From: Thermoanaerobaculia bacterium
GTDB lineage: Bacteria > Acidobacteriota > Thermoanaerobaculia > UBA5066 > Gp7-AA6
Length of the DNA stretch: 64,000 bases
Direction: 5' to 3'
Assembly (NCBI GenBank): GCA_035263845.1
Contig: DATFQY010000005.1
Coordinates: forward strand, 6,770-70,769
Made by a program: the position numbers and the translations under genes. Numbering within the stretch: position 1 is the stretch's first letter; every line of letters starts with the position of its first letter. The notes under the pieces were generated by a model. That model saw nothing but the letters and a program-made list of their open reading frames with translations, did no database searches and was not told where the DNA came from. Shown one piece after another: positions 42,935 through 64,000 of this stretch.

Positions 42935-44479
42935 TCAGCTTTCGCTTTCGATCGCCCGGGGGATCACGGCGTCGAGCCCGGGGAACTTCCCAAGCCAGGC
43001 CCGGCGCTCGAGGCGGAGCTTGTTGACCAGCTCGGCGTACTTCTCCGGCGTGTAGTACCGCCGCGGCGTGTACTTCGCGAGGTCGAGCCCGGGGACCTCG
43101 GCCGGCACCTCGTAGCCCCAGTCGGGGTCCTTCTCCCACGCCAAGCCTTCCTTGGCGATCTGCTTCATCAGCTCGGTGGAGACCCGGATCGTGACCTTCT
43201 CGCCGGGGAAGCCGTCTCCGGCCCCGACGGAGCCGGTGTTTAAGATGTAGGCCTGCATGTCCGGGTTCTCCCGGAGGATCTCGAGCACCCGGTTGCCCTC
43301 CTCGGACTCGGGCCCCACGATGAACGGGTTCGTTCCGACCTCGCGCTTGGCCTGCCCGGCCTTCGTCGGGTCGCCGGCCGACGTCTCGATGGACTCGCCC
43401 AGCATGAAGTAGGCGGCGGCCTGCTCGGCCGTCAGGCGCGCGCAGACCGGCACCACGTCGTTTCGCCGGGTGATGAAGACGATCTTGTTGGCCTTGGGCA
43501 GGTCGATGCCCTCGCCCGTCCCGCGGATGAACCGCCGAAGCACGACGCCGCGGCCGTTGGAGGTGATGGACGTGTCGAGGAAGTCCACGTGCCCCGCGTC
43601 GTCCACCTTGATGTTCTCGTACGTCGCGGTCGCGTGGGTCGCGGCGCCCCAGAGGACCGTCTGGGAGGGCTCGAGCCCCTCGGTCTTGATGTAGAAGCCG
43701 TCCTCCGTGCCGAAGGCTTCCCCATCGTGGGTCAGCAACACGACGTCGTCCTGCTTGATGATCGCTCGCTCGGGCTCCTGGAGGCCGTGGTCGTGGAGGG
43801 TCAGGGTCGTCTTGCCGGTCCCGGAGAGCCCGAAGAGCAGGAAGCCCACGTCGCGGAGCTTCCCGTCGGGACCGAACACCCGCAGGATCTTCGAGCCGGC
43901 GTGGAGGCCCAGGCCGCCGCGCCGCTTGATCCAGTACATCGCCTGCCGGAGCATCGACTTCTTGGCCTCGCCGGGGTAGTCGCTGCCCAGGATGTAGGTG
44001 TAGCCCTCGGTCACGTCGCAGAAAATCAGCCGCTCCGGCCACTCCGGCACATAGACGGAGACGAAGTCCGGCTCGTGGGAGGAGTCGGACGGGAAGAGCA
44101 TGTTGTGCCACATGAAGGCGATCCGGGCGTACTCCTTCGGAACGTAGAGCCGGCAGCGCAGCGTTGCCTCGGGCGAGTCGCCCATCCTCCGGTCCACCTG
44201 GACGAGGTCCATGTCGGCCAGCGCCTCCTGGACCTTCCGGACCGTCTCCTGCGCCTTCTCCTGGTCGATCGGCTGCTGCATGACGCCGACTTTGACGTCC
44301 GAAACGATGTAGGTGTTCTTGGCAGACCGGCTCTTGACCCGCGTCGAGTACACGGGCGAGCCGTACTCGGTCGTCTTTTCGCCGGCGCGGGCGAGCTCGC
44401 GAAGGCGCTCGCCGGAAAGGTCCTTGAGGATGGATCTCGCTCGGACGGTCCGGGGCGAGAAGACGTCGACCGTGCTCAT
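42935..44479 (-). CDS. pckA: Phosphoenolpyruvate carboxykinase (ATP).
   Basis: Kinase-1a P-loop GLSGTGKTT and PckA-wide conservation. 514 aa. Confidence 0.9.
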   Translation of the reverse strand: MSTVDVFSPRTVRARSILKDLSGERLRELARAGEKTTEYGSPVYSTRVKSRSAKNTYIVSDVKVGVMQQPIDQEKAQETVRKVQEALADMDLVQVDRRMGDSPEATLRCRLYVPKEYARIAFMWHNMLFPSDSSHEPDFVSVYVPEWPERLIFCDVTEGYTYILGSDYPGEAKKSMLRQAMYWIKRRGGLGLHAGSKILRVFGPDGKLRDVGFLLFGLSGTGKTTLTLHDHGLQEPERAIIKQDDVVLLTHDGEAFGTEDGFYIKTEGLEPSQTVLWGAATHATATYENIKVDDAGHVDFLDTSITSNGRGVVLRRFIRGTGEGIDLPKANKIVFITRRNDVVPVCARLTAEQAAAYFMLGESIETSAGDPTKAGQAKREVGTNPFIVGPESEEGNRVLEILRENPDMQAYILNTGSVGAGDGFPGEKVTIRVSTELMKQIAKEGLAWEKDPDWGYEVPAEVPGLDLAKYTPRRYYTPEKYAELVNKLRLERRAWLGKFPGLDAVIPRAIESES

Positions 44480-44554
44480 CCGGGTCCCTCCTTTTCGGGG
44501 CCTGAGTAAGGTACATCAGGCCGGCACCCTTCCCGGGCTTCCCGGCCGCGAGAA

Positions 44555-44572
44555 TGCACAGAAAATTGTGCA
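44555..44572. promoter_or_regulatory. Perfect inverted repeat TGCACA-N6-TGTGCA in the pckA/glnA divergent spacer; candidate activator or repressor site (resembles NtrC-type TGCACC-N5-GGTGCA).
   Basis: tgcacagaaaattgtgca is an 18 bp dyad centred about 82 bp upstream of the predicted glnA transcription start, and about 85 bp upstream of the pckA start codon on the other strand. Confidence 0.35.
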
Positions 44573-44610
44573 TCCGCGCGGAATTTTCTGCATTTTCATC
44601 AAGAAATCGA

Positions 44611-44638
44611 TTGAATTCCTGCAAAACGACACTAGAAT
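44611..44638 (+). promoter_or_regulatory. Sigma70-like promoter for glnA (TTGAAT-16 nt-TAGAAT).
   Basis: ttgaattcctgcaaaacgacactagaat lies about 30 nt upstream of an AAAGGAGAG RBS and the glnA ATG. Confidence 0.35.
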
Positions 44639-44669
44639 CACGCCGAAAGTGCAAAAAAAGGAGAGCAGA

Positions 44670-46043
44670 ATGGCAAAGGCGAAGATTCTCAAGTTCGACG
44701 CCTCCGGCCCGGGCCTGTCCAAGCCGGAGATCCTGAAGGTCTGCGGGACGGAGAACGTGCGGTTCATGCGGCTGCAGTTCACCGACATCCTCGGCGTCAT
44801 CAAGAACGTCGAGATCCCGCGCTCGCAGTTCGAGAAGGCCCTCGACGGCGAGATCCAGTTCGACGGCTCCTCGATCGAGGGCTTCACCCGGATCGAGGAA
44901 TCCGACATGAACCTGGTGCCGGACCTGAACTCCTTCGCGATCTACCCGTGGGCCCACAACGGCGGCGAGAAGGTCGGCCGTCTGATCTGCGACGTTTACA
45001 ACCCCGACGGAACGCCGTTCCCAGGCTGCCCCCGCATGACGCTGAAGAAGCAGATGGACAAGGCGGCCGCCTTGAGCTACGTCCTCGTGACGGGGCCCGA
45101 GGCCGAGTTCTTCCTCTTCCGCCGCGATGCCAACGGCGACCCGATCGTGGACACCCACGATCAGGGGGCCTACTTCGACCTGACGCCGGTGGACCGCGGA
45201 GAGGAAGCGCGGCGCGACATCGTCCTGGCGCTCGAGCAGATGGGCTTCGAGGTCGAGGCCGCGCATCACGAGGTCGCGCCGGGGCAGCACGAGATCGACT
45301 TCAAGTACGCCGACGCCGTCACGACGGCCGACCGAGTCACGACGTTCCGCTTCATCGTCAAGAAGGTCGCGATGGACCACGGGCTCCACGCGACCTTCAT
45401 GCCCAAGCCGATCTTCGGGGTCAACGGCTCGGGAATGCACACCCACCAGTCCTTCCTCGACTCCAAGGGGAACAACGTCTTCTACGACTCGAAGGCCAAA
45501 TACCAGCTCTCGAAGACCGCTCTCCATTACACGGGCGGGATCCTGCGCCACGCCAAGGCGTTCGTCGCGGTGACGAACCCGCTGGTGAACTCCTACAAGC
45601 GCCTGGTCCCGGGCTACGAGGCGCCGGTCAACGTCGCCTGGTCCATGCGCAACCGCTCGCCGCTCGTCCGCGTTCCGGCCCGCCGCGGCATGGGGACGCG
45701 CATCGAGGTCCGGATGCCGGACCCGTCCTGCAACCCGTACCTCGCGTTCGGCGTGATGCTTGCTTCGGGTCTGGACGGGCTGAAGAACAAGATGGATCCG
45801 GGCGAGCCCGTGGACCGCAACGTCTTCAAGATGAGCGAGCGCGAGAAGCGGCGGCTGAAGATCGACCAGCTGCCGGCCAACCTCTCCGAGGCGCTCGACA
45901 ACCTCGAGCGCGACGAGGTCGTGACCGATGCGCTCGGCGAACACATCCTCCAGCACTTCCTCGAGGCCAAGCGCGGCGAGTGGGCGGAGTACATCTCCAA
46001 AGTCCAGCCCTGGGAGGTGGACAAGTACCTGGATACCTACTGA
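44670..46043 (+). CDS. glnA: Glutamine synthetase (type I-like, 458 aa).
   Basis: GS beta-grasp and catalytic domains (for example GSGMHTHQS, NPYKRLVPGYEAP). Strong RBS. Confidence 0.95.
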   Translation: MAKAKILKFDASGPGLSKPEILKVCGTENVRFMRLQFTDILGVIKNVEIPRSQFEKALDGEIQFDGSSIEGFTRIEESDMNLVPDLNSFAIYPWAHNGGEKVGRLICDVYNPDGTPFPGCPRMTLKKQMDKAAALSYVLVTGPEAEFFLFRRDANGDPIVDTHDQGAYFDLTPVDRGEEARRDIVLALEQMGFEVEAAHHEVAPGQHEIDFKYADAVTTADRVTTFRFIVKKVAMDHGLHATFMPKPIFGVNGSGMHTHQSFLDSKGNNVFYDSKAKYQLSKTALHYTGGILRHAKAFVAVTNPLVNSYKRLVPGYEAPVNVAWSMRNRSPLVRVPARRGMGTRIEVRMPDPSCNPYLAFGVMLASGLDGLKNKMDPGEPVDRNVFKMSEREKRRLKIDQLPANLSEALDNLERDEVVTDALGEHILQHFLEAKRGEWAEYISKVQPWEVDKYLDTY

Positions 46044-46098: not shown

Positions 46099-47004
46099 AT
46101 GGCTACGTACGGGTTTCGCGAGAGGGCCCGGCAGGGGCCGCCGCTCCTGCTCGACTCGGCGATGGGGACCGAGCTCGAGCGGCGGGGAGCCCGCGCCGAG
46201 CTGCCCCTCTGGAGCGCGCGGGCCCTGATCGAAAACCCGGAGCTCGTGCTGGCGATCCACCGGGACGAGGTCGCCGCCGGCGCGGACATCCTCACCGCGA
46301 ACACGTTCCGCACGCACCGCCGGACGCTCGCGAGGGAGAACCTCGGCGACCGGTCGGCCGAGCTGACACGGACGGCCGTGCTGCTCGCTCGCGAGGCGGC
46401 CCGCTCCGCCTCCCGGCCGGTCTGGGTGGCCGGATCGCTTTCGCCGCTGGAGGACTGCTACCGGCCGGACCTGCGCCCGCCGGGCGAGGCGCTGGAACGG
46501 GAGCACGCGGTCCAGGCGGAGGCGCTCGCTTCCTCGGGCGTGGACCTGATCCTGATCGAGACGCAGAACTCCGTTCGGGAGCTCGCCACCGCGGCCCGCT
46601 GGGCCCGGGACACCGGCTTGCCGGTCGTGGCCTCGATGATCACGGACGGGAAGGGGCGTCTGCTGTCCGGCCAGCCGATCGAGGTGGCGGTCGCCGCGGT
46701 CGAGTCCCTCCGCCTCGACGCCCTCTCGATCAACTGCGTTGCGACACGAGACCTCGCCGGCGACCTCGCCCGTCTCGCCAGGGCCGCCCCGGGCGTCCCC
46801 CTCGCGGCCTACGGCAACCTCGGCCCTCCCTCCGGCGAGGGTGGCACGGTCTTCACGAAGTTCGTCGAGCCCGAGGAGTACGCCTCGCTCGCCGAGGAGT
46901 GGATCGCGCTCGGCGCGCGCATGGTCGGCGGCTGCTGCGGGACGACGAGCGCCCACACGGCTGCGCTTCGGCGGAGGATCGATTCCGGCGGTCCTACTTC
47001 CTGA
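46099..47004 (+). CDS. Homocysteine S-methyltransferase family protein (MmuM-like).
   Basis: Pterin-binding/Hcy-binding fold with zinc-ligand cysteines (GGCCGTT near the C-terminus, and LSINCV). Confidence 0.8.
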   Translation: MATYGFRERARQGPPLLLDSAMGTELERRGARAELPLWSARALIENPELVLAIHRDEVAAGADILTANTFRTHRRTLARENLGDRSAELTRTAVLLAREAARSASRPVWVAGSLSPLEDCYRPDLRPPGEALEREHAVQAEALASSGVDLILIETQNSVRELATAARWARDTGLPVVASMITDGKGRLLSGQPIEVAVAAVESLRLDALSINCVATRDLAGDLARLARAAPGVPLAAYGNLGPPSGEGGTVFTKFVEPEEYASLAEEWIALGARMVGGCCGTTSAHTAALRRRIDSGGPTS

Positions 47005-48061
47005 CGAAGCTCTTGTGGAGCAGCCGTCCGGATTCGGCGGATGCGTCGCCGGACTCGGTGTACTCGTAGACAACGGTCTTGCCCGTTTCGCGGGTCGTCT
47101 TCCGAACCGAGGCCGTGACGTTCTCGCTCTTCGGCTCCGCCCGCGAGACGGCGGTCAGGAACTCCAGGGCCGCCTCCTTCGAAGGAGGCTCGGGTGACGC
47201 CCTCTTCGGGTCTCGGGCGAGCAGGGCCTCGCGGGCATAGGACTCGACGAGCTTGCGGGCGAGCTTGCGGAAGAGCTCGGGCGATCCGTACACGTCCGCG
47301 GCGACGATCTCCCCGTTGATCGCGACGGCGAGGCCGACGGCGTCTCTGGCCGCCTCGAGGCGGGGGAGCAGCGAGCCGACGTAGTCGGCCGTCCGGGCCT
47401 GGATCTCGCGGTTCGAGACGATCGCGCTGTAGCTGCCGGTGGAAGACATCGTCCGCCCTGGGACGCCTCCCTCCCGCCCTGGGACGCCTCCCTCCACGGT
47501 GACGACGGCAGCCGCCTTGGCGTCGTGTGCCGCCACGTCCGCCCAGACCGCGGTCTGGTTCTTCTCTCCCTGGATGCTCGCCTTCGCCTTCGGGCTCCCC
47601 ACGACGGCGGCGCTGCCGTCGAATGCGGCGTTTCCCGTCCACCGCCCGTGCTCGACGCAGAACGCGCTGATCGGCTGCGGCATCGACCTCGGTGCGATCG
47701 CCACGTCCACCCCGATCGTGCGGTCCTGCCTCCCGCCGATGACGACGTCGCCCGCCTGGAGGAAGAGCCACTGGTCCGACCGGTTCTCGACCTCGAGCTC
47801 GTTGACGGACGCGCCTCCCGAAGAGCTCCGTTCTCGGACGAGCACCGTGCGGGCTTTCATCCCCTCGGCCAATGTGACGTACCGGCGGTCGTCCCTCGGC
47901 CGGTCGAACACCGTGTAAATCGCAAGGTTCTGGTTCGGGAACGGACCCTCGATCCGGAGCTTCTCCGGCGCCGCACGGGCGGGGCCTTCCGGAACGGCGA
48001 GCAGCGCGGCCAGGGCAACCAGCGCGAGACCGATCGGCGGGCGTGTTAGCGAAGGATTCAT
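46994..48061 (-). CDS. Secreted hypothetical protein.
   Basis: A GGAGG RBS precedes the signal peptide MNPSLTRPPIGLALVALAALLAVPEGPARA. No recognisable catalytic motifs. It overlaps the convergent methyltransferase gene end. Confidence 0.5.
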   Translation of the reverse strand: MNPSLTRPPIGLALVALAALLAVPEGPARAAPEKLRIEGPFPNQNLAIYTVFDRPRDDRRYVTLAEGMKARTVLVRERSSSGGASVNELEVENRSDQWLFLQAGDVVIGGRQDRTIGVDVAIAPRSMPQPISAFCVEHGRWTGNAAFDGSAAVVGSPKAKASIQGEKNQTAVWADVAAHDAKAAAVVTVEGGVPGREGGVPGRTMSSTGSYSAIVSNREIQARTADYVGSLLPRLEAARDAVGLAVAINGEIVAADVYGSPELFRKLARKLVESYAREALLARDPKRASPEPPSKEAALEFLTAVSRAEPKSENVTASVRKTTRETGKTVVYEYTESGDASAESGRLLHKSFVRK

Positions 48062-48105
48062 GGAACCTCCGCAGGGTCCGGACACCGCCGGCCGACGGAA
48101 GTTCC

Positions 48106-49187: not shown

Positions 49188-50036
49188 ATGTCCTCCGACT
49201 ACCTCGAGGGCCGCGGCCGTGTCCGCGTGGACGCCGCGGGAATCGCGATCGAGGGAGTCTCGGTCGCCGGCCGGGAGTCGTTCTACAAGGTCCCCTCCTT
49301 CCATGTCCTCCTGGAGTTCGGCCGCGCTCCTGAAGACACCGTTTCCTACTCGACGGTCTGCCTCACGCACGGCCACCTCGACCACGCCGCCGGCCTCGCC
49401 CACCACGCCTCGCGCCGGCGGCTCGACGGAATGCCCGCCGCACGCGTCTTCGCACCCGAGGAAGCGGTCCCGGACCTGGAAGGGTGGCTGGCCTTCTCCC
49501 AGAGGCTCGAGAACGTGGACTACCGGCTGCACCTGACTCCGGCGTCGCCCGGCGCGACCTTCCGGATGCGAAACGACCTGGAGCTGAAGGTCCTGCCGGG
49601 GAGCCACCGCGTTCCCACGGTCGGCTACCTCTTCTCCGAGATCAAGCACAAGCTCAAGGACGAGTTCCTCGACCTGACCGGGGACAGGATCGCTGCGCTG
49701 CGCGCCGGGGGCACCGAAGTCACGCGACGGGAGGAGATCCCTCTCCTCGCCTACACCGGCGATTGCGGCCCGGGGATCTTCGACGCCGCTCCGGAGCTCT
49801 TCATGGCCCGGGTCCTTCTGATCGAGTGCTCCTTCGTCCTTCCCGAGGACCGCGACCGCGCCCGGACCTACGCCCACCTTCACCTCCAGGACTTCCTCGA
49901 CCGCGCCGCGGATTTCCGAAACGAGGCGATCGTCCTGACCCACTTCTCCCAGCGCTACGGAGTCGAAGAGATCCGCCAAACGCTTGACGCGGTTTCTGAG
50001 GTATTCGCTAGACGGATAGTCCCATTTCTCCCTTAG
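49188..50036 (+). CDS. MBL-fold metallo-hydrolase (RNase Z-like).
   Basis: Motif THGHLDH, 282 aa. The start is only 35 bp from the divergent queA. Confidence 0.75.
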   Translation: MSSDYLEGRGRVRVDAAGIAIEGVSVAGRESFYKVPSFHVLLEFGRAPEDTVSYSTVCLTHGHLDHAAGLAHHASRRRLDGMPAARVFAPEEAVPDLEGWLAFSQRLENVDYRLHLTPASPGATFRMRNDLELKVLPGSHRVPTVGYLFSEIKHKLKDEFLDLTGDRIAALRAGGTEVTRREEIPLLAYTGDCGPGIFDAAPELFMARVLLIECSFVLPEDRDRARTYAHLHLQDFLDRAADFRNEAIVLTHFSQRYGVEEIRQTLDAVSEVFARRIVPFLP

Positions 50037-50141
50037 TCAGCGGAGAGAGGGATGCCAAAATGATGCATCCGCATCTGACAGACACGCGTCGAGCACCACT
50101 AGTCTCACCAGAACTCAGTTGCTATCTCGAGGAGGTGCTCG

Positions 50142-50465
50142 ATGAAGCGGGGTTTCTTTTTGGTCGTCACGGTTGTTGCTTTCATTGTAATGAGCTATCC
50201 AAGTGTGGCCTTCCCGGATCAACTCGACAGCGCAGCGGCTGGAGGATGGGTTACCTACTACGACGAGAACTGGAATCTGGTTGGCGAGTGGTATAAGCCG
50301 TGTCAGGGCCAAGCATCGCGATGGGGCGTTGTCGGAGTCTACGCCTCTATCGATGAGTACTACAGCTGCGAAGGAGGACCGGAACCGCCGTCGTGCACTC
50401 CTTGGATCGTCTACGATGCCCCCTCCGGAAACCTGCCGAATCCATCGTTGGCCTGTTATCAATAG
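50142..50465 (+). CDS. Small secreted Cys-rich, aromatic-rich protein (107 aa, 4 Cys).
   Basis: RBS GAGGAGG, then the signal peptide MKRGFFLVVTVVAFIVMSYPSVA. The mature part is about 85 aa with C53, C76, C84, C105 and many W/Y. No homology is recognised. Confidence 0.5.
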   Translation: MKRGFFLVVTVVAFIVMSYPSVAFPDQLDSAAAGGWVTYYDENWNLVGEWYKPCQGQASRWGVVGVYASIDEYYSCEGGPEPPSCTPWIVYDAPSGNLPNPSLACYQ

Positions 50466-50477
50466 TCTCCGCCGACT

Positions 50478-51510
50478 ATGCCGAAAAGTCTTTATTCTGG
50501 CGATGGCGATCGCCTGCCTTTCGGATGACTCCGCAGGCCAGAGAACGTCTCCCGTTCAGGAGAAGGTGACGGTCGAACGAGTTGTAATAACAGGTCATGT
50601 CATTGACAGATTTGCGAAACCGATTCATGGGCTGACCGTTGATGATTTTGTTCTCCTGGTCGACGGGATTCCGACCCCAATCGAGTCCGTCGATTGGATT
50701 GAGACCGTCCAGTTCTTGGAGACGCGAACGCCGGTCGTTGGAGCTGATAGATCCGGTTCTGCTTCGACAGAACTCGGATTACCCGGTAGTCCGAGGCTAA
50801 CGGTCCTACTCTTTCAGTGGGAGATCTCCGGTCAAAAAGACACCGGCTTCGTCAGAATGATGCGCCAAGCTAAGTCCCTGATCGAAAGCTCCGGTCCGGA
50901 TGATTTGTTCGCCGTCCTGGGCTTTGGCTCCAGCCTTCGGCTGCTTCAGGACTTTACGAACAGCCATGAAACCATTGAACGCGCGATTCTCAACGTCCGA
51001 AGCCTTGGTTGGAAGAGCCCGGTTCCAGAATCAGGACGACCAGCTCTTACAACGGGAATCACCGACTGCGGGCGCACGGATTCGATCGAGGCTGGTCTGA
51101 CTTGTATCGGCAAGGGACTTGATCGCCTGCCTGGACCAAAGTCCCTTCTCTTCTTTGGCTGGAGTGCTGCCACGAATGAACACACTTGGCGCGCGCGGGC
51201 TCCTTCGGTGATCGAGTCGGTGACGAAGGCTGAAACGTCTGTCTTCGTCCTTGATGTCAGTGATGGCAGGCGCTACGGTAAGCGGCTGCTCCTAGAGAGC
51301 CTCAAGACACTCGCTTTTGAAACAGGAGGCCTCTATCAGACTACGTACGATTTCCCGGACCTGGCCCGGAATCGAGTCCAGCGGACCCTCGACGGCTACT
51401 ACGAATTGACCTTCCGGAACCAGCCAACGAGCCGAGGATGGCATCGCGTTGACGTTGAGCTGGCACGGCGGCTCGGAACCGCGCTCTTTCGGCGGTGGTT
51501 TCAGGACTGA
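50478..51510 (+). CDS. VWFA-related Acidobacterial domain protein (TIGR03436-like): an N-terminal beta-sandwich plus a VWA domain, with an apparent frameshift between the signal peptide and the body.
   Basis: The body starts at ATG 50503 and reads VTVERVVITGHVIDRFAKPIHGLTVDDFVLLVDGIPTPIESV, then a VWA-like core. ATG 50478 in another frame encodes MPKSL. Removing one T from the TTT at 50491-50493 yields MPKSLILAMAIAC, a lipoprotein signal peptide. Confidence 0.55.
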
Positions 51511-51902
51511 GGGTCTCGCGGCAGGAGGTTCTCGGGCTTCCCGATGCGGAGGATCCGGCCCTCCAGGACGTAGCCCAGACCGTTCATTCGCAGGATCACG
51601 TCCAGGGCCTGGTCCCAGGGAACGTCGTGCAGGGAGACCGTGACGGAGCCGCGGACGTCCGGATCGACGGCGATGTTGACCTTCGTCAGCTCGGCGAACG
51701 TCCGCAGGACGTCTTTCAAGTCGGCGTCTTTCAGGTCGAGCGAGATTGGCTCGCCGGAGTACGGCGATTGGGAATCCGCCGGCTTCGCAGGCGCGGCCTT
51801 CGTTTTCGCCGGCCGCTTGCGGGGGGACTCCGCCGCCGAAGAAGACGCAACGAACACGCAAAGAAGAAGCGCTGCCAGGAAGCCCTCGAACCGCCTTCTC
51901 AT
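51501..51902 (-). CDS. Secreted protein consisting of a single STN (secretin/TonB short N-terminal) domain, 133 aa.
   Basis: The signal peptide MRRRFEGFLAALLLCVFVASSSAA is followed by an STN-like block ISLDLKDADLKDVLRTFAELTKVNIAVDPDVRGSVTVSLHDVPWDQALDVILRMNGLGYVLEGRILRI. Confidence 0.55.
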   Translation of the reverse strand: MRRRFEGFLAALLLCVFVASSSAAESPRKRPAKTKAAPAKPADSQSPYSGEPISLDLKDADLKDVLRTFAELTKVNIAVDPDVRGSVTVSLHDVPWDQALDVILRMNGLGYVLEGRILRIGKPENLLPRDPQS

Positions 51903-51931: not shown

Positions 51932-52552
51932 ATGCCGGTCGTGCGACCTCTCTCGCCGGCCAGGGTCCTGCCGTGGGTTCTCGTCGCCGCCCTGGGCGCG
52001 GCGACGCTGTTTCTCTTGTCGCGGGCGTTCCTTCCCTGGGGCGAGAGCCGAAGTGTGTCGGCGGCGCCGGTCGTCGCGGCGGTCCGGCACATCGCGCAGT
52101 TCTCGACCGTGGAGATCCAGGTCTCCGACGTCGTCCGCTACGAGGAAGCGAAACACTTCCTGGTCTTCGACTTTCCCAAGAGCGCCACGCTTCGGCTGAG
52201 AGGCCGCGTGCTGGGAGGCTTCGACCTGGAGAACCGGGCATTCAAAGTCCTTCCCGACGCCGACCATCGCATCGTCCGGGTGAAGCTCCCTCAGCCGCGG
52301 ATCCTCGCCGTGGATCCGCGCTTCGAGTGGTTCGACGAGAAGAGCGGCTGGATCAACCCGATCACACCGGCCGACCGCACCCGCTGGATGCTCTGGGCGC
52401 GGGGCGAACTCGCTCGCGCGGCGAAGCAGTCCGGGATCGAGCAGAAAGCGCAGGATCACGCCCGGGAGCTCATCACCTCGGCGGCCGACGGCTTCGGGTG
52501 GAAAGCGGACATTGCTTTTGAAAGAACCGTAGCGGCAGTTTCTTCGGAGTGA
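51932..52552 (+). CDS. Membrane-anchored hypothetical protein (206 aa).
   Basis: An N-terminal TM helix, then a soluble domain. It is divergent from the STN gene across a 29 bp spacer. Confidence 0.5.
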   Translation: MPVVRPLSPARVLPWVLVAALGAATLFLLSRAFLPWGESRSVSAAPVVAAVRHIAQFSTVEIQVSDVVRYEEAKHFLVFDFPKSATLRLRGRVLGGFDLENRAFKVLPDADHRIVRVKLPQPRILAVDPRFEWFDEKSGWINPITPADRTRWMLWARGELARAAKQSGIEQKAQDHARELITSAADGFGWKADIAFERTVAAVSSE

Positions 52553-63494: not shown

Positions 63495-64000
63495 CTATCC
63501 GCGGTCCGGCTCCTGGCCCGTCACCTCGCGGTACCAGCGCCCGTGGTGCAAGCGCGCCCATCTCTTCGTCACCGTTCCGCGAGTCATCGAAACCAAGGTG
63601 CCAGGCTCGGCGACGGTTCCCAGATAGATGTGGATCACGATCAGCATCGCGAAGAGGATGAACGTGATGTCGTGGATCAGATAGCCGAGTTCCATCAGGA
63701 AACGCGGGAAGACGCCCGGAAACCACATGAGCAGCCCGGAAAGAAGCATGCCGAGCGCGGCGAGACAGACGAGCCAGAACTGGAGCTTCTGACCGCCGTT
63801 GTACTTTCCAACGTTGGAATCATCGGTCTCATAGCGCATGTAACGCATCGGTAATCGCCACCCGATCCATTCGCGCTCCGAAGAGTCGAGTGACATGTCG
63901 GCGAACCAGTGAACGAACATCACGGCGCTGGCGAGGAAGAAAACGACGCCCGCCCACGGGTGGATCACGCGGCAGACGGAGAGCCCGCCGAAAAAAGCAG
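63495..64000 (-). CDS. fdoI: Formate dehydrogenase cytochrome b556 (gamma) subunit, C-terminal part. The gene continues past the window end.
   Basis: Heme-ligand His pattern and TM helices typical of FdnI/FdoI (HWFADM, LIHDITFILFAMLIVIHIYLG). The ORF is open to the window edge. Confidence 0.7.
   Translation of the reverse strand, partial: AFFGGLSVCRVIHPWAGVVFFLASAVMFVHWFADMSLDSSEREWIGWRLPMRYMRYETDDSNVGKYNGGQKLQFWLVCLAALGMLLSGLLMWFPGVFPRFLMELGYLIHDITFILFAMLIVIHIYLGTVAEPGTLVSMTRGTVTKRWARLHHGRWYREVTGQEPDRG

What the first reader, a model, noticed from the sequence alone, without database searches (positions are those of the whole stretch)
50037..51510. A 1.5 kb low-GC island carrying a Cys-rich secreted mini-protein and a VWFA-related Acidobacterial-domain lipoprotein
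Between the MBL hydrolase gene and the STN-domain gene, G+C drops from about 68-70% to about 50-54% for roughly 1.47 kb, then recovers abruptly. The island encodes a small secreted protein (85 aa mature, 4 Cys, rich in W/Y) with a strong RBS, and a TIGR03436-like protein (beta-sandwich plus VWA). The compositional break argues for recent horizontal acquisition or a hypervariable cassette. The paired small secreted Cys-rich protein and VWA surface protein could be an adhesion or bacteriocin-like module. No integrase, tRNA or direct repeats flank it, so the insertion mechanism is unclear.
Basis: seen in the sequence. Interest (0 to 1): 0.6.

Follow-up and report, generated by a model that had tools for sequence, protein, structure and literature searches.

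The report
Low-GC two-gene envelope islet
A real 1.4 kb stretch of foreign-looking, low-GC DNA in a soil acidobacterium (class Thermoanaerobaculia) carries a conserved gene pair of unknown function, a small secreted cysteine-containing protein and a VWA-fold protein, in a chromosomal slot that is empty or decayed in close relatives; it is an ordinary small accessory islet, not a new kind of system.

Summary
The GC dip is real. The interval has 56.0% GC against a window mean of 68.1%, the lowest value in the 64 kb. GC3 is 0.60 against 0.88 in flanking genes. The same sequence was assembled independently from several metagenomes, so it is not a chimera.

The tract runs from about 49920 to about 51340. 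It starts in the last 35 or so codons of the MBL gene and ends about 55 codons before the VWA stop.

Both ORFs are real genes under purifying selection: a Pfam DUF6289 small secreted protein and a TIGR03436 VWA-fold protein that lacks a canonical MIDAS motif.

DUF6289→VWA is a recurrent module. It occurs at four different loci and is GC3-poor each time. A conserved upstream motif accompanies it where enough upstream sequence is held.

The MBL/STN slot is variable:
- empty in two relatives
- VWA only in one
- a 130-nt VWA remnant in another

So a VWA gene has long occupied this slot. The window's low-GC version most likely arrived by homologous-recombination replacement from a relative with lower GC. 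This step is inferred.

There is no integrase, tRNA or flanking repeat, and no excess strain variation. Nothing supports a bacteriocin role. Function is unknown; I favour an extracytoplasmic binding pair, with low confidence. Interest is modest.

The parts
49920..51340 (.). Low-GC tract (approximate change points), the compositionally foreign segment
   Evidence: 100-nt and 300-nt GC profiles. The sliding GC3 profile falls from about 0.9 to 0.6 at about 49920 and rises to 0.7-0.8 after about 51340.
49188..50036 (+). MBL-fold hydrolase gene (RNase Z-like, well below the equivalog cut-offs). It is a host gene whose last 32-39 codons (49920-50036) lie inside the low-GC tract.
   Evidence: Pfam Lactamase_B_2, 6.6e-14; weak RNase Z NCBIfam hits. 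Tail GC3 is 0.59 against 0.72-0.91 in nine relatives. The window's tail is the only one lacking the LPxx[L/I] motif.
50058..50077 (+). Conserved upstream element AATGATGCATCCGCATCTGA (core TGAT-N8-ATCT, i.e. GAT[GC]-N6-[CA]ATC), a candidate operator or promoter element of the module
   Evidence: The core is present in five related loci. Its last base lies 65-66 nt before the DUF6289 ATG in the window and L032, and 35-36 nt before the VWA ATG in the DUF6289-less loci L005 and L036. It is also present upstream in L033. The surrounding spacer is not conserved.
50130..50135 (+). Shine-Dalgarno-like AGGAGG, 6 nt upstream of the DUF6289 ATG
   Evidence: Read directly from the sequence.
50142..50465 (+). 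DUF6289 gene: a 107-aa small secreted protein with an N-terminal signal-like helix and a mature beta-rich domain of about 80 aa. Three Cys are invariant and a fourth is conserved in most members. It is rich in W and Y.
   Evidence: Pfam PF19806, 32.9 bits against a cut-off of 27.3. Family alignment A1. AlphaFold2 model with six strands and pLDDT 82-97 over the mature part. GC3 0.62. dN/dS about 0.1 against L032, L033 and L034. The family is rare: 9 cluster representatives at E<=1e-3 among 1.84e9.
50416..51510 (+). TIGR03436-type VWA-fold protein gene (364 aa): signal peptide (possibly a lipobox), N-terminal beta-sandwich, disordered linker, VWA fold without a canonical MIDAS, C-terminal beta-strands. 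Its start overlaps the DUF6289 ORF by 50 nt, and its stop overlaps the convergent STN gene by 10 nt.
   Evidence: TIGR03436, 84.3 bits against a cut-off of 81.25. Pfam VWA_2 reaches only 17.7 bits, below its cut-off of 27. Model pLDDT is 83; Foldseek hits include ITIH1 (1e-8), ArnB, CMG2 and vWF A3. Where DxSxS is expected, F133-Q134-W135-E136 and Q140-K141 are invariant; where TDG is expected, G248-W249 are invariant. GC3 0.60. An identical 364-aa gene call exists in public data (P0001).
51501..51902 (-). STN/secretin-N0-domain small protein gene (133 aa as called in public data). It is the host gene that forms the right border of the slot.
   Evidence: Pfam STN 6.6e-13 and GspD_N0 1.4e-9; it matches only positions 1-76 of the PilQ model. 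GC3 0.84. Orthologs of similar short length occur in relatives.

Best explanation
**What it is.** The tract is a small accessory islet. It is a self-contained two-gene envelope module sitting in a variable chromosomal slot between an MBL-fold hydrolase gene and a small STN/N0-domain gene. The host is a soil acidobacterium of the class Thermoanaerobaculia with about 68% GC.

**Parts of the module**
- A conserved upstream element (TGAT-N8-ATCT).
- A gene for a small secreted DUF6289 protein: beta-rich, four Cys, many aromatic residues.
- A gene for an exported TIGR03436 VWA-fold protein whose metal-binding (MIDAS) residues are replaced by invariant Q-W-E and G-W. In the window this gene overlaps the first by 50 nt.

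**Shown**
- Both genes are real and under purifying selection.
- The pair recurs at four unrelated loci and is always GC3-poor relative to its neighbours.
- The slot is empty, decayed or differently filled in relatives.
- A VWA gene already occupied this slot in the ancestor shared with the L008-L010 clade.

**Inferred: how it arrived.** The present low-GC version was imported into the window lineage by homologous recombination, as an allelic replacement. The donor would be a related but lower-GC acidobacterium (about 56% GC) carrying the same MBL-[DUF6289]-VWA arrangement. One crossover fell in the last 35 or so codons of MBL and the other about 55 codons before the VWA stop. This explains why no integrase, tRNA or target duplication is present.

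**Inferred with low confidence: what it does.** The two exported proteins are made together and act as an extracytoplasmic binding pair. The small aromatic-rich protein would be a partner or ligand-presenting subunit of the MIDAS-less VWA protein. A surface adhesion or complex-formation role is more likely than a toxin.
For: **Composition**
- GC is 0.560 against 0.681 +/- 0.028, the minimum of the window.
- GC3 is 0.60 against 0.88, p about 1e-41, and codon usage is distinct.
- GC1 and GC3 of the islet (0.56-0.61 and 0.60-0.62) fit the Muto-Osawa / Lawrence-Ochman expectation for a genome of about 56% GC (61% and 62%). The flanks fit 68% GC (formulas from my own knowledge).

**Not an artefact.** Four independently assembled contigs are 99.8-100% identical across both junctions.

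**Variable slot**
- L008 and L014 go from MBL to STN with no VWA or DUF6289; L014 has a tRNA-Asn gene there.
- L009/L005 has VWA only.
- L010 has a remnant of about 130 nt.
- L011 goes from MBL directly to the next gene.
- L015 and L016 hold other high-GC genes.
- The species tree is (window,(L010,(L009,L008))).

**Event specific to the window lineage.** The window's MBL tail has GC3 0.59 and is the only one of ten lacking the LPxx[L/I] motif. L005's tail is native, with GC3 0.88.

**Recurrent module.** DUF6289 followed by VWA occurs in:
- L032, after an amidohydrolase with GC3 0.93 (module GC3 0.62 and 0.69)
- L034
- L041, before nuoA and nuoE with GC3 0.87-0.90 (module GC3 0.64 and 0.69)
. 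The upstream element is conserved with fixed spacing.

**A lower-GC reservoir exists.** The L035 host has GC about 0.59 and GC3 about 0.63 throughout, and it carries a DUF6289 gene.

**Homology-driven insertion of a DUF6289 cluster is documented elsewhere.** In L043 the island is bracketed by a 664-nt direct repeat of the host ABC ATPase gene, 92% identical.

**No mobile-element machinery**
- No tRNA.
- No flanking repeats beyond chance.
- No PHROGs or PADLOC hits.
- No relatives on viral contigs.

**Real genes.** dN/dS is about 0.1. The structure models have pLDDT 78 and 83, and the VWA fold is confirmed.
Against: - No donor sequence was found. The closest VWA outside the species is only 64-65% identical, and the closest DUF6289 is 65-74% identical.
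- In the gene tree the window's VWA is sister to L005's. This matches the species tree, so simple vertical descent with uneven amelioration is not excluded.
- Synonymous sites are saturated, so relative ages cannot be read from dS.
- MBL tails in other relatives also show somewhat reduced GC3 (0.72-0.80). Part of the tail effect may therefore be a general gene-end effect.
- Every DUF6289 cluster examined in a high-GC host is GC3-poor despite deep divergence among copies. This could point to a maintained property rather than to a recent import.
- The functional proposal rests only on co-occurrence, export signals and the ORF overlap. No complex prediction or experiment is available.
Confidence: 0.55

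Rival explanations
1. Single ancient acquisition followed by vertical descent. The DUF6289-VWA module entered the MBL/STN slot once, in the common ancestor of the window lineage and the L008-L010 clade. It has been inherited vertically since then. The window lineage has simply ameliorated less. L009 lost DUF6289 and ameliorated more. L010 and L008 deleted the module.
For: - A positional VWA ortholog exists in L005/L009 (65% aa identity; flanks 70-79%) and a remnant exists in L010.
- The VWA gene tree agrees with the species tree for window and L005.
- The upstream element is retained in L005, 35 nt before the VWA start. This is as expected if DUF6289 was deleted from between the element and the VWA gene.
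- The same with/without pattern is seen at the amidohydrolase locus, L032 against L036.
Against: - The two lineages have had equal time since they split, yet GC3 is 0.60 in the window and 0.77 in L005.
- The low-GC tract extends into the MBL tail only in the window. L005, L008 and L010 have native high-GC tails carrying the family motif.
- The islet's GC1 and GC3 look un-ameliorated for a source of about 56% GC.
Confidence: 0.25
2. Low GC is an intrinsic, maintained property of DUF6289 clusters. It might be maintained by selection for rare codons or weak mRNA structure in these exported proteins, or by exclusion from GC-biased gene conversion. On this view it is not a trace of recent transfer.
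For: - All DUF6289 clusters examined in high-GC hosts are GC3-poor (0.62-0.74) next to flanks of 0.87-0.93. These are the window, L032, L041, L039 and L043. L034 is too short to show host flanks.
- This holds although the copies are so diverged that synonymous sites are saturated.
- VWA genes of the same clade that lack DUF6289 are intermediate (0.74-0.80). VWA genes of remote clades match their hosts at 0.85-0.90.
Against: - The low-GC tract also covers the non-coding spacer and the end of the neighbouring MBL gene.
- The clusters sit at different loci in different genomes. One of them is flanked by a recombination-type duplication, which indicates mobility.
- In the lower-GC host L035, the DUF6289 locus is simply host-like.
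- I know of no mechanism for such selection in this group.
Confidence: 0.13
3. A bacteriocin or toxin-like module. The small Cys-rich secreted protein would be an antimicrobial peptide or toxin, and the VWA protein its immunity, receptor or maturation partner.
For: - The small protein is secreted, disulfide-capable and of rare family, with a patchy accessory distribution.
- One relative (L033) sits next to a MazEF-like toxin-antitoxin pair.
Against: - No match to any bacteriocin, RiPP, toxin or defence family in Pfam, NCBIfam, PADLOC or PHROGs.
- No modification enzyme, transporter or immunity-type membrane protein lies in the module.
- The partner is itself exported rather than membrane-embedded.
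- In other subfamilies the neighbours are ECF-sigma-like regulators and unknown exported proteins.
Confidence: 0.05
4. Artefact or hypervariable region. The tract would be either a metagenome mis-assembly (a chimera between organisms) or a diversifying, hypervariable cassette.
For: The composition changes abruptly in a metagenome-derived sequence.
Against: - Four independent assemblies from different samples and pipelines span both junctions at 99.8-100% identity.
- Reading frames run intact across both change points.
- Only 2 of 24 strain-level SNPs fall in the tract.
- dN/dS is about 0.1.
Confidence: 0.02

Closest known systems
TIGR03436 (acidobact_VWFA, 'VWFA-related Acidobacterial domain') paralogous family
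   Same: - The protein passes the curated cut-off (84.3 against 81.25 bits) over nearly the whole model.
- All named relatives come from Acidobacteriota/Thermoanaerobaculia MAGs.
- The predicted fold is a beta-sandwich plus a VWA domain.
   Different: - This sub-clade has invariant Q-W-E and G-W where canonical VWA domains have the MIDAS DxSxS and TDG.
- It scores below the Pfam VWA_2 threshold.
- In four loci it is preceded by a DUF6289 gene. A literature search found no paper on that pairing.
- The family itself has no established function.
Pfam DUF6289 (PF19806) small proteins
   Same: - Passes the gathering threshold (32.9 against 27.3 bits).
- NCBI names the identical protein 'DUF6289 family protein [Thermoanaerobaculia bacterium]'.
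   Different: - Nothing is known about the family; no papers were found.
- The sub-family here is rare: 9 representatives at E<=1e-3 among 1.84e9.
- It has an extra C-terminal Cys-containing extension beyond the 43-position Pfam model.
Low-GC surface-structure cassettes exchanged by recombination in conserved flanking genes (for example enterobacterial O-antigen clusters between galF and gnd, or pneumococcal capsule loci). This comparison comes from my own knowledge.
   Same: - A compositionally atypical, low-GC cassette encoding exported or surface components.
- It sits in a fixed slot between conserved genes.
- It has no integrase or att sites.
- The foreign tract runs into the end of a flanking core gene, as recombination tracts do into gnd.
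   Different: - Only two genes, encoding proteins rather than polysaccharide synthesis.
- No alternative alleles were seen within the sampled population.
- The donor is unidentified.
- Among relatives the slot is more often empty or decayed than refilled.
Classical tRNA-linked genomic islands
   Same: - Atypical composition.
- Patchy presence among relatives.
- A tRNA-Asn gene occupies the equivalent slot in more distant relatives (L014, and nearby in L013).
   Different: - No tRNA in the 64-kb window.
- No integrase.
- No flanking direct repeats.
- Only about 1.4 kb long.
Integrin I-domain-type / MIDAS-containing VWA adhesins (CMG2, vWF A domains, ITIH1)
   Same: The Rossmann-like VWA fold is recovered by Foldseek at E from 1e-8 to 1e-5. 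The protein is predicted to be extracytoplasmic.
   Different: The canonical metal-ion-dependent adhesion site is absent. Ligand binding, if any, must therefore use another mechanism. Sequence identity is only 10-17%.

Membership tests
TIGR03436 acidobact_VWFA | Score at or above the NCBIfam curated cut-off over most of the model | tested here: met
   84.3 bits against a cut-off of 81.25; residues 50-355 match model positions 4-313 of 324. The margin is narrow. The paired homolog in L041 scores only 62 bits.
TIGR03436 acidobact_VWFA | Restricted to Acidobacteria | tested here: met
   Syntenic relatives are Acidobacteriota/Thermoanaerobaculia MAGs. Source names on homologs say Thermoanaerobaculia.
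Canonical VWA domain (Pfam PF00092 / PF13519) | Sequence match above the Pfam gathering score | tested here: not met
   VWA_2 reaches 17.7 bits against a cut-off of 27; there is no PF00092 hit.
Canonical VWA domain (Pfam PF00092 / PF13519) | VWA (Rossmann-like alpha/beta) fold | tested here: met
   AlphaFold2 model with pLDDT 83 and alternating beta/alpha elements over residues 128-325. Foldseek hits to ITIH1, ArnB, CMG2 and vWF A3 at E from 1e-8 to 1e-6.
Canonical VWA domain (Pfam PF00092 / PF13519) | MIDAS motif: DxSxS after beta-1, plus T and D (TDG after beta-4) | tested here: not met
   After beta-1 (residues 128-134) the sequence is Q134-W135-E136-I-S138. After beta-4 (242-248) it is G248-W249-S. 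Q134, W135, E136, G248 and W249 are invariant in 44 homologs. This was judged from the motif position in the predicted secondary structure, not from coordinates.
Pfam DUF6289 | Score at or above the gathering threshold | tested here: met
   32.9 bits against 27.3; residues 37-76 match model positions 4-42 of 43.
Horizontally acquired genomic island (classical) | Atypical base composition and codon usage | tested here: met
Horizontally acquired genomic island (classical) | Absent from the same site in related genomes | tested here: met
   No VWA or DUF6289 gene in the slot in L008 and L014; a remnant in L010. The DUF6289 gene is absent from this slot in all nine relatives. The VWA gene is present in L009 only.
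Horizontally acquired genomic island (classical) | Integrase or other mobility gene, adjacent tRNA, flanking direct repeats | tested here: not met
   No tRNA in the window. No repeats beyond chance. The islet holds only the two genes. No PHROGs hits.
Bacterial lipoprotein (for the VWA protein) | Lipobox [LVI][ASTVI][GAS]C at the end of a signal peptide, conserved in orthologs | tested here: inconclusive
   The window has ...FILAMAIA-C, with A at -3, which is non-canonical. L005 has MAV-C, with V at -1. Most homologs have short Cys-less signal peptides. No lipoprotein predictor was available.
Bacteriocin / RiPP precursor | Match to a known precursor family, or adjacent maturation, export or immunity genes | tested here: not met
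   No Pfam or NCBIfam family other than DUF6289. The neighbours are a VWA protein and housekeeping genes.
Hypervariable / diversifying cassette | Excess polymorphism or positive selection relative to the flanks | tested here: not met
   2 of 24 SNPs fall inside the tract across three conspecific contigs. dN/dS is about 0.1 between homologs.

The most novel reading that the evidence does not exclude
**Spread.** DUF6289-led cassettes may form a family of small envelope modules without integrases that circulate among Thermoanaerobaculia purely by homology-driven recombination. The window would show a double crossover. L043 would show a Campbell-type single crossover that left a 664-nt duplication. 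The cassettes would stay at about 56-62% GC because their reservoir is lower-GC acidobacteria.

**Regulation.** Each cassette would carry its own conserved operator (TGAT-N8-ATCT).

**Function.** The DUF6289 protein would be the cognate partner or ligand of a new MIDAS-less class of VWA protein. Together they would form a previously unrecognised two-component surface-binding system.
Probability: 0.2. Interest if true: 0.5.

Novelty: new member of a known kind. Interest (0 to 1): 0.3.

Why it matters
- It is a clean, well-bounded example of gene flow into an uncultured soil acidobacterium without any mobile-element machinery. The foreign tract ends inside conserved genes, which points to homologous recombination as the entry route.
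- It links two uncharacterised families, DUF6289 and a MIDAS-less branch of TIGR03436, as a conserved co-inherited pair with a shared upstream element. That gives each family its first functional context and a concrete hypothesis to test, namely that the two proteins form a complex.
- The practical value is mainly for annotation and for studies of accessory-gene dynamics in Acidobacteriota. It does not open or close a major question.

Tried and rejected
1. **Assembly chimera.** Rejected by four independent assemblies.
2. **Flanking direct or inverted repeats as att sites or target duplications.**
   - Only chance-level matches were found.
   - A 13-nt inverted repeat brackets the DUF6289 gene (50034-50046 and 50466-50478). 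My estimate of the chance expectation is 1-2 such pairs per 2.3 kb, and the repeat is not seen in L032 or L034.
   - A 17/23 direct match lies near both GC change points (49890-49912 and 51349-51371). It falls in motifs conserved within each gene family, and by my estimate it is not significant.
3. **tRNA or Rfam element in the islet.** None.
4. **Sigma-70 promoter or terminator scan.** Nothing above shuffled expectation.
5. **Phage or defence origin.** No PHROGs or PADLOC hits, and no relatives on IMG/VR contigs.
6. **Dating by dS.** Synonymous sites are saturated. Even the MBL pS of 0.46 is near the ceiling expected at GC3 of about 0.9, so the comparison is uninformative.
7. **Structural identification of DUF6289.**
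   - The afdb50 library was unavailable.
8. **YD/RHS-repeat relationship.** The repeat protein P0065 suggested it, but there is no Pfam RHS hit.
9. **Whether the 430-470-aa partner in the second DUF6289 subfamily is also a VWA.** hhalign gives 0.3% probability, so this is not shown.
10. **PDB sequence search with the VWA profile.** No significant hit.
11. **Literature.** No papers mention DUF6289, TIGR03436, or 'VWFA-related' together with Acidobacteria.
12. **Truncated pilQ.** I considered that the STN gene might be a pilQ cut short by the insertion. I rejected this because orthologs of the same short length occur in relatives that have no islet.
Full report
**1. Observation**

- The GC dip is real and statistically extreme for this window. 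The interval 50037-51510 has 56.0% GC. The window mean is 68.1%, and the sd of equally long sliding windows is 2.8 points. The interval contains the global minimum, and it is the only place where a 1474-nt window falls below 60%.
- At the codon level, the two genes have GC3 of 0.60 (275/456). Seven surrounding genes have 0.88 (1601/1828); chi-square is 183 and p about 1e-41.
- Synonymous codon choice differs strikingly between islet and flanks: GCT 0.39 vs 0.03, ATT 0.38 vs 0.04, GAT 0.54 vs 0.16, CAT 0.83 vs 0.19.
- GC1 and GC3 of the islet (0.56-0.61 and 0.60-0.62) are what the classical Muto-Osawa / Lawrence-Ochman regressions predict for a genome of about 56% GC. The flanks fit 68% (the formulas are from my own knowledge).
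  - GC3 falls within the last 35-39 codons of the MBL gene, from about 49920.
  - It rises again about 55 codons before the VWA stop, from about 51340.
- The other brief low-GC spots in the window are ordinary. One is the divergent pckA/glnA intergenic region at 44.4-44.9 kb. The other is a membrane cytochrome-b-type gene at 63.5-63.95 kb.

**2. Not an artefact**

An exact-protein look-up found the small protein on six contigs from different samples and pipelines (ENA/MEGAHIT, Logan, JGI). The four whose DNA could be fetched align to the window at 99.8-100% identity across both composition junctions. NCBI labels the identical protein as coming from a Thermoanaerobaculia MAG.

**3. The genes**

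*ORF 50142-50465 (107 aa)*
- It is preceded by AGGAGG, 6 nt upstream of the ATG.
- It has a hydrophobic N-terminus and a mature domain with four Cys, and it is rich in W and Y.
- It passes Pfam DUF6289 (32.9 bits against 27.3).
- An exhaustive HMMER scan of 1.84 billion cluster representatives found only nine relatives at E of 1e-3 or better. A profile search of the 5.8-billion-cluster collection found twenty.
- The family alignment shows the conserved pattern GG-W-V-x-YYD-x-NWN-x-VG-x-WYKPC-x-G-...-RWGV-x-G-...-C-x-GG-PEPP-x-C-...-PSL-x-C.
- AlphaFold2 gives a six-stranded beta domain with pLDDT 82-97 over the mature part.

*ORF 50416-51510 (364 aa)*
- It is the same gene call as public protein P0001, and it passes TIGR03436 (84.3 bits against 81.25).
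- The model (pLDDT 83) has these parts in order:
  - a signal-like helix
  - an N-terminal beta-sandwich
  - a disordered linker
  - a VWA fold recovered by Foldseek against ITIH1, ArnB, CMG2 and vWF A3 (E from 1e-8 to 1e-6)
  - C-terminal strands
- The canonical MIDAS is absent. Q134-W135-E136 stands where DxSxS is expected, and G248-W249 where TDG is expected. These residues are invariant across 44 homologs.
- The ATG at 50416 is the only ATG, GTG or TTG start codon that gives the protein a signal peptide. It lies 50 nt inside the DUF6289 ORF (my reading of the sequence; N-terminal alignment).
- The lipobox-like LAMAIA-C is not conserved in homologs, so lipoprotein status is uncertain.

*Selection.* Both genes are under purifying selection, with dN/dS about 0.1 against homologs.

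*Database checks.* There are no PADLOC or PHROGs hits and no relatives on IMG/VR viral contigs. No paper mentions either family.

**4. The slot in relatives**

Anchoring on the MBL protein retrieved nine syntenic loci from Acidobacteriota/Thermoanaerobaculia MAGs. A queA+MBL tree gives (window,(L010,(L009,L008))), with more distant L011-L016 (L011 was not placed in the tree because its queA match is split).

| Locus | Content between MBL and the next conserved gene (STN or the 155-aa gene) |
|---|---|
| L008 | Nothing (75-nt spacer before STN) |
| L014 | Only a tRNA-Asn gene |
| L009 (= L005, a 4.46-Mb contig) | VWA only, 47 nt after MBL |
| L010 | A remnant of about 130 nt, closely matching L009's VWA, fused to a DUF4230 remnant |
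| L011 | None; runs directly to the next conserved gene |
| L015, L016 | 3.6-5.3 kb of unrelated high-GC genes |

- Between the window and L005, the flanking proteins are 70-79% identical and the VWA proteins 65%.
- Hence a VWA gene occupied this slot in the ancestor of the window lineage and the L008-L010 clade. It has since been lost twice. The slot is variable, but the VWA gene is not a recent newcomer.
- What is peculiar to the window lineage is the DUF6289 gene, the strongly depressed GC3 (0.60 against 0.77 in L005) and an aberrant MBL tail. The 32 codons after THFSQRY have GC3 0.59. They are the only one of ten orthologous tails lacking the LPxx[L/I] motif; the relatives have GC3 0.72-0.91.

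**5. The pair is a module**

- The closest DUF6289 relatives were traced to their contigs.
  - In L032 the order is amidohydrolase (GC3 0.93), then DUF6289 (0.62), then VWA (0.69).
  - In L034, DUF6289 is followed after 30 nt by a VWA gene.
  - In L041, DUF6289 (0.64) and VWA (0.69) precede nuoA and nuoE (0.87-0.90).
- Together with the window, that makes four different genomic contexts with the same gene order and the same compositional contrast.
- L036 is the same amidohydrolase locus as L032 (amidohydrolase 86% identical, VWA 76%), but it lacks DUF6289. This parallels window against L005.
- A short upstream element (core TGAT-N8-ATCT) is conserved in the window, L032, L033, L005 and L036. 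Measured from the last base of the core, its spacing is fixed at 65-66 nt before the DUF6289 ATG and 35-36 nt before the VWA ATG where DUF6289 is missing. The rest of the spacer is not conserved. It is a candidate operator or promoter element. Nothing more can be said, because the sigma-70 scan and Rfam were both negative.
- GC3 forms a gradient:

| Gene class | GC3 |
|---|---|
| DUF6289 genes | 0.62-0.73 |
| VWA genes paired with DUF6289 | 0.60-0.69 |
| VWA genes of the same clade without DUF6289 | 0.74-0.80 |
| VWA genes of remote clades | 0.85-0.90 (equal to host) |

- A second DUF6289 subfamily (L039, L043-L045) is followed by an unknown 430-470-aa protein and an ECF-sigma-like gene. These clusters are again GC3-poor (0.67-0.74 against 0.88-0.93).
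- L035 links a more distant member with an ECF-like gene, a redoxin-like gene and a protease gene. Its host has GC3 of about 0.63 throughout, so there the locus is compositionally native.

**6. How it got there**

- No tRNA, integrase, target duplication or significant flanking repeat exists in the window.
- The foreign tract ends inside two conserved coding regions, and both reading frames stay intact across the change points. This is what a homologous-recombination (gene-conversion) tract looks like. The donor would share the MBL-(DUF6289)-VWA arrangement but have lower GC.
- The MBL-tail anomaly is specific to the window lineage. This favours such a secondary replacement over simple inheritance of an ancestral insertion.
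- Two observations give independent plausibility.
  - A lower-GC acidobacterial host of DUF6289 exists (L035).
  - In L043 the DUF6289 cluster lies between a 5'-truncated copy and a full copy of a host ABC ATPase gene. This is a 664-nt direct repeat, 92% identical, with 4330-nt spacing. It is the signature of a single-crossover, homology-driven insertion.
- Against this view:
  - No donor was found.
  - The VWA gene tree is compatible with vertical descent.
  - dS is saturated and so uninformative.
- I therefore rate the explanations as follows:

| Explanation | Confidence |
|---|---|
| Recombinational import | about 0.5-0.55 |
| Ancient acquisition with uneven amelioration | about 0.25 |
| A maintained, intrinsic low-GC property of these clusters | about 0.13 |

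**7. What it does**

- No function can be demonstrated.
- The facts available are:
  - both products carry export signals
  - the genes are adjacent at four loci and overlap in the window, which is compatible with coupled translation
  - they share an upstream element
  - the VWA domain has lost its metal site but keeps an invariant Trp-containing face
  - the small protein is an aromatic-rich, disulfide-capable beta domain
- The reading I commit to, at about 0.3, is an extracytoplasmic binding pair. The small protein would be a partner or ligand-presenting subunit of the VWA protein, serving surface adhesion or complex formation.
- A bacteriocin or toxin role (0.05) has no positive support.
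- The cassette is not hypervariable. Two of 24 strain SNPs fall in the tract.

**8. Verdict**

- The feature is a small compositionally foreign accessory islet in a variable slot, carrying a recurrent DUF6289-VWA module.
- This is a new member of a known kind. It is useful for annotating two uncharacterised families and as an example of gene import without an integrase. It is not surprising to a specialist.
- Interest is 0.3.

Noticed in passing
L043:3957-8991: A 3.7-kb GC3-poor DUF6289 cluster (DUF6289, a 470-aa unknown protein, an ECF-sigma-like gene, a CAP/YkwD-like gene) lies between a 5'-truncated copy and a full copy of a MacB/LolD-type ABC ATPase gene. The copies form a 664-nt direct repeat (92% nt, 97% aa identity, 4330-nt spacing). 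This is the signature of single-crossover, homology-driven insertion.
   Followed up: partly
L014:6904-6979 and L013:7666-7741: A tRNA-Asn(GTT) gene sits in the MBL-to-STN slot in L014, and near the slot in L013. There is no tRNA anywhere in the 64-kb window.
   Followed up: partly
L010:6857-6990: A remnant of about 130 nt of the VWA gene, encoding ...DGTLTPIESVEWIPAGADSEPRPP... as in L009, is fused to a remnant of the DUF4230 gene. The STN gene is deleted.
   Followed up: yes
L005:11525-11543, L008:7352-7370, L009:8421-8439 (- strand); L011:6980-6998 (+ strand): A GC-rich palindromic element of about 50 nt (CGCGGCGCGAGG...CTGCGGTTACTTGGGAGAC...CCTCGCGCCGCG) is conserved in the intergenic region next to the slot in four relatives. 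It is inverted in L011 and absent from the window. Its nature is unknown.
   Followed up: no
window 46994-48085 and 51932-52552: The ARPP-1-domain gene and the DUF4230 gene are present in the window but absent from the syntenic L005 locus, yet both have host-like GC3 (about 0.83-0.88). So not all variable genes here are compositionally foreign.
   Followed up: partly
protein P0065 (684 aa; not in the window): This protein has about ten tandem repeats resembling the N-terminal hairpin of DUF6289 (W-x-x-YDANWNL...). It has no RHS/YD or other significant Pfam match.
   Followed up: partly
L035:2443-6063; L039:6001-8711; L043:4859-8184: More distant DUF6289 genes sit next to ECF-sigma-like genes. 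In L035 there are also a redoxin-like gene and a trypsin-like protease gene. This hints that some family members belong to envelope-stress or ECF-regulated clusters.
   Followed up: partly
window 51501-51510: The VWA gene and the convergent STN gene overlap by 10 nt at their 3' ends. The STN protein consists only of a signal peptide, a linker and a secretin N0/STN domain, and its orthologs have the same short length (122-133 aa).
   Followed up: partly
window 44401-44900 and 63551-63950: Two other short low-GC spots. The first is the divergent pckA/glnA intergenic region. The second lies within a hydrophobic cytochrome-b-type membrane protein gene next to fdhE. Both are ordinary.
   Followed up: yes
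L033:2-606: The one close DUF6289 relative not followed by a VWA gene lies beside a MazF/PemK-like toxin gene and an antitoxin gene.
   Followed up: no
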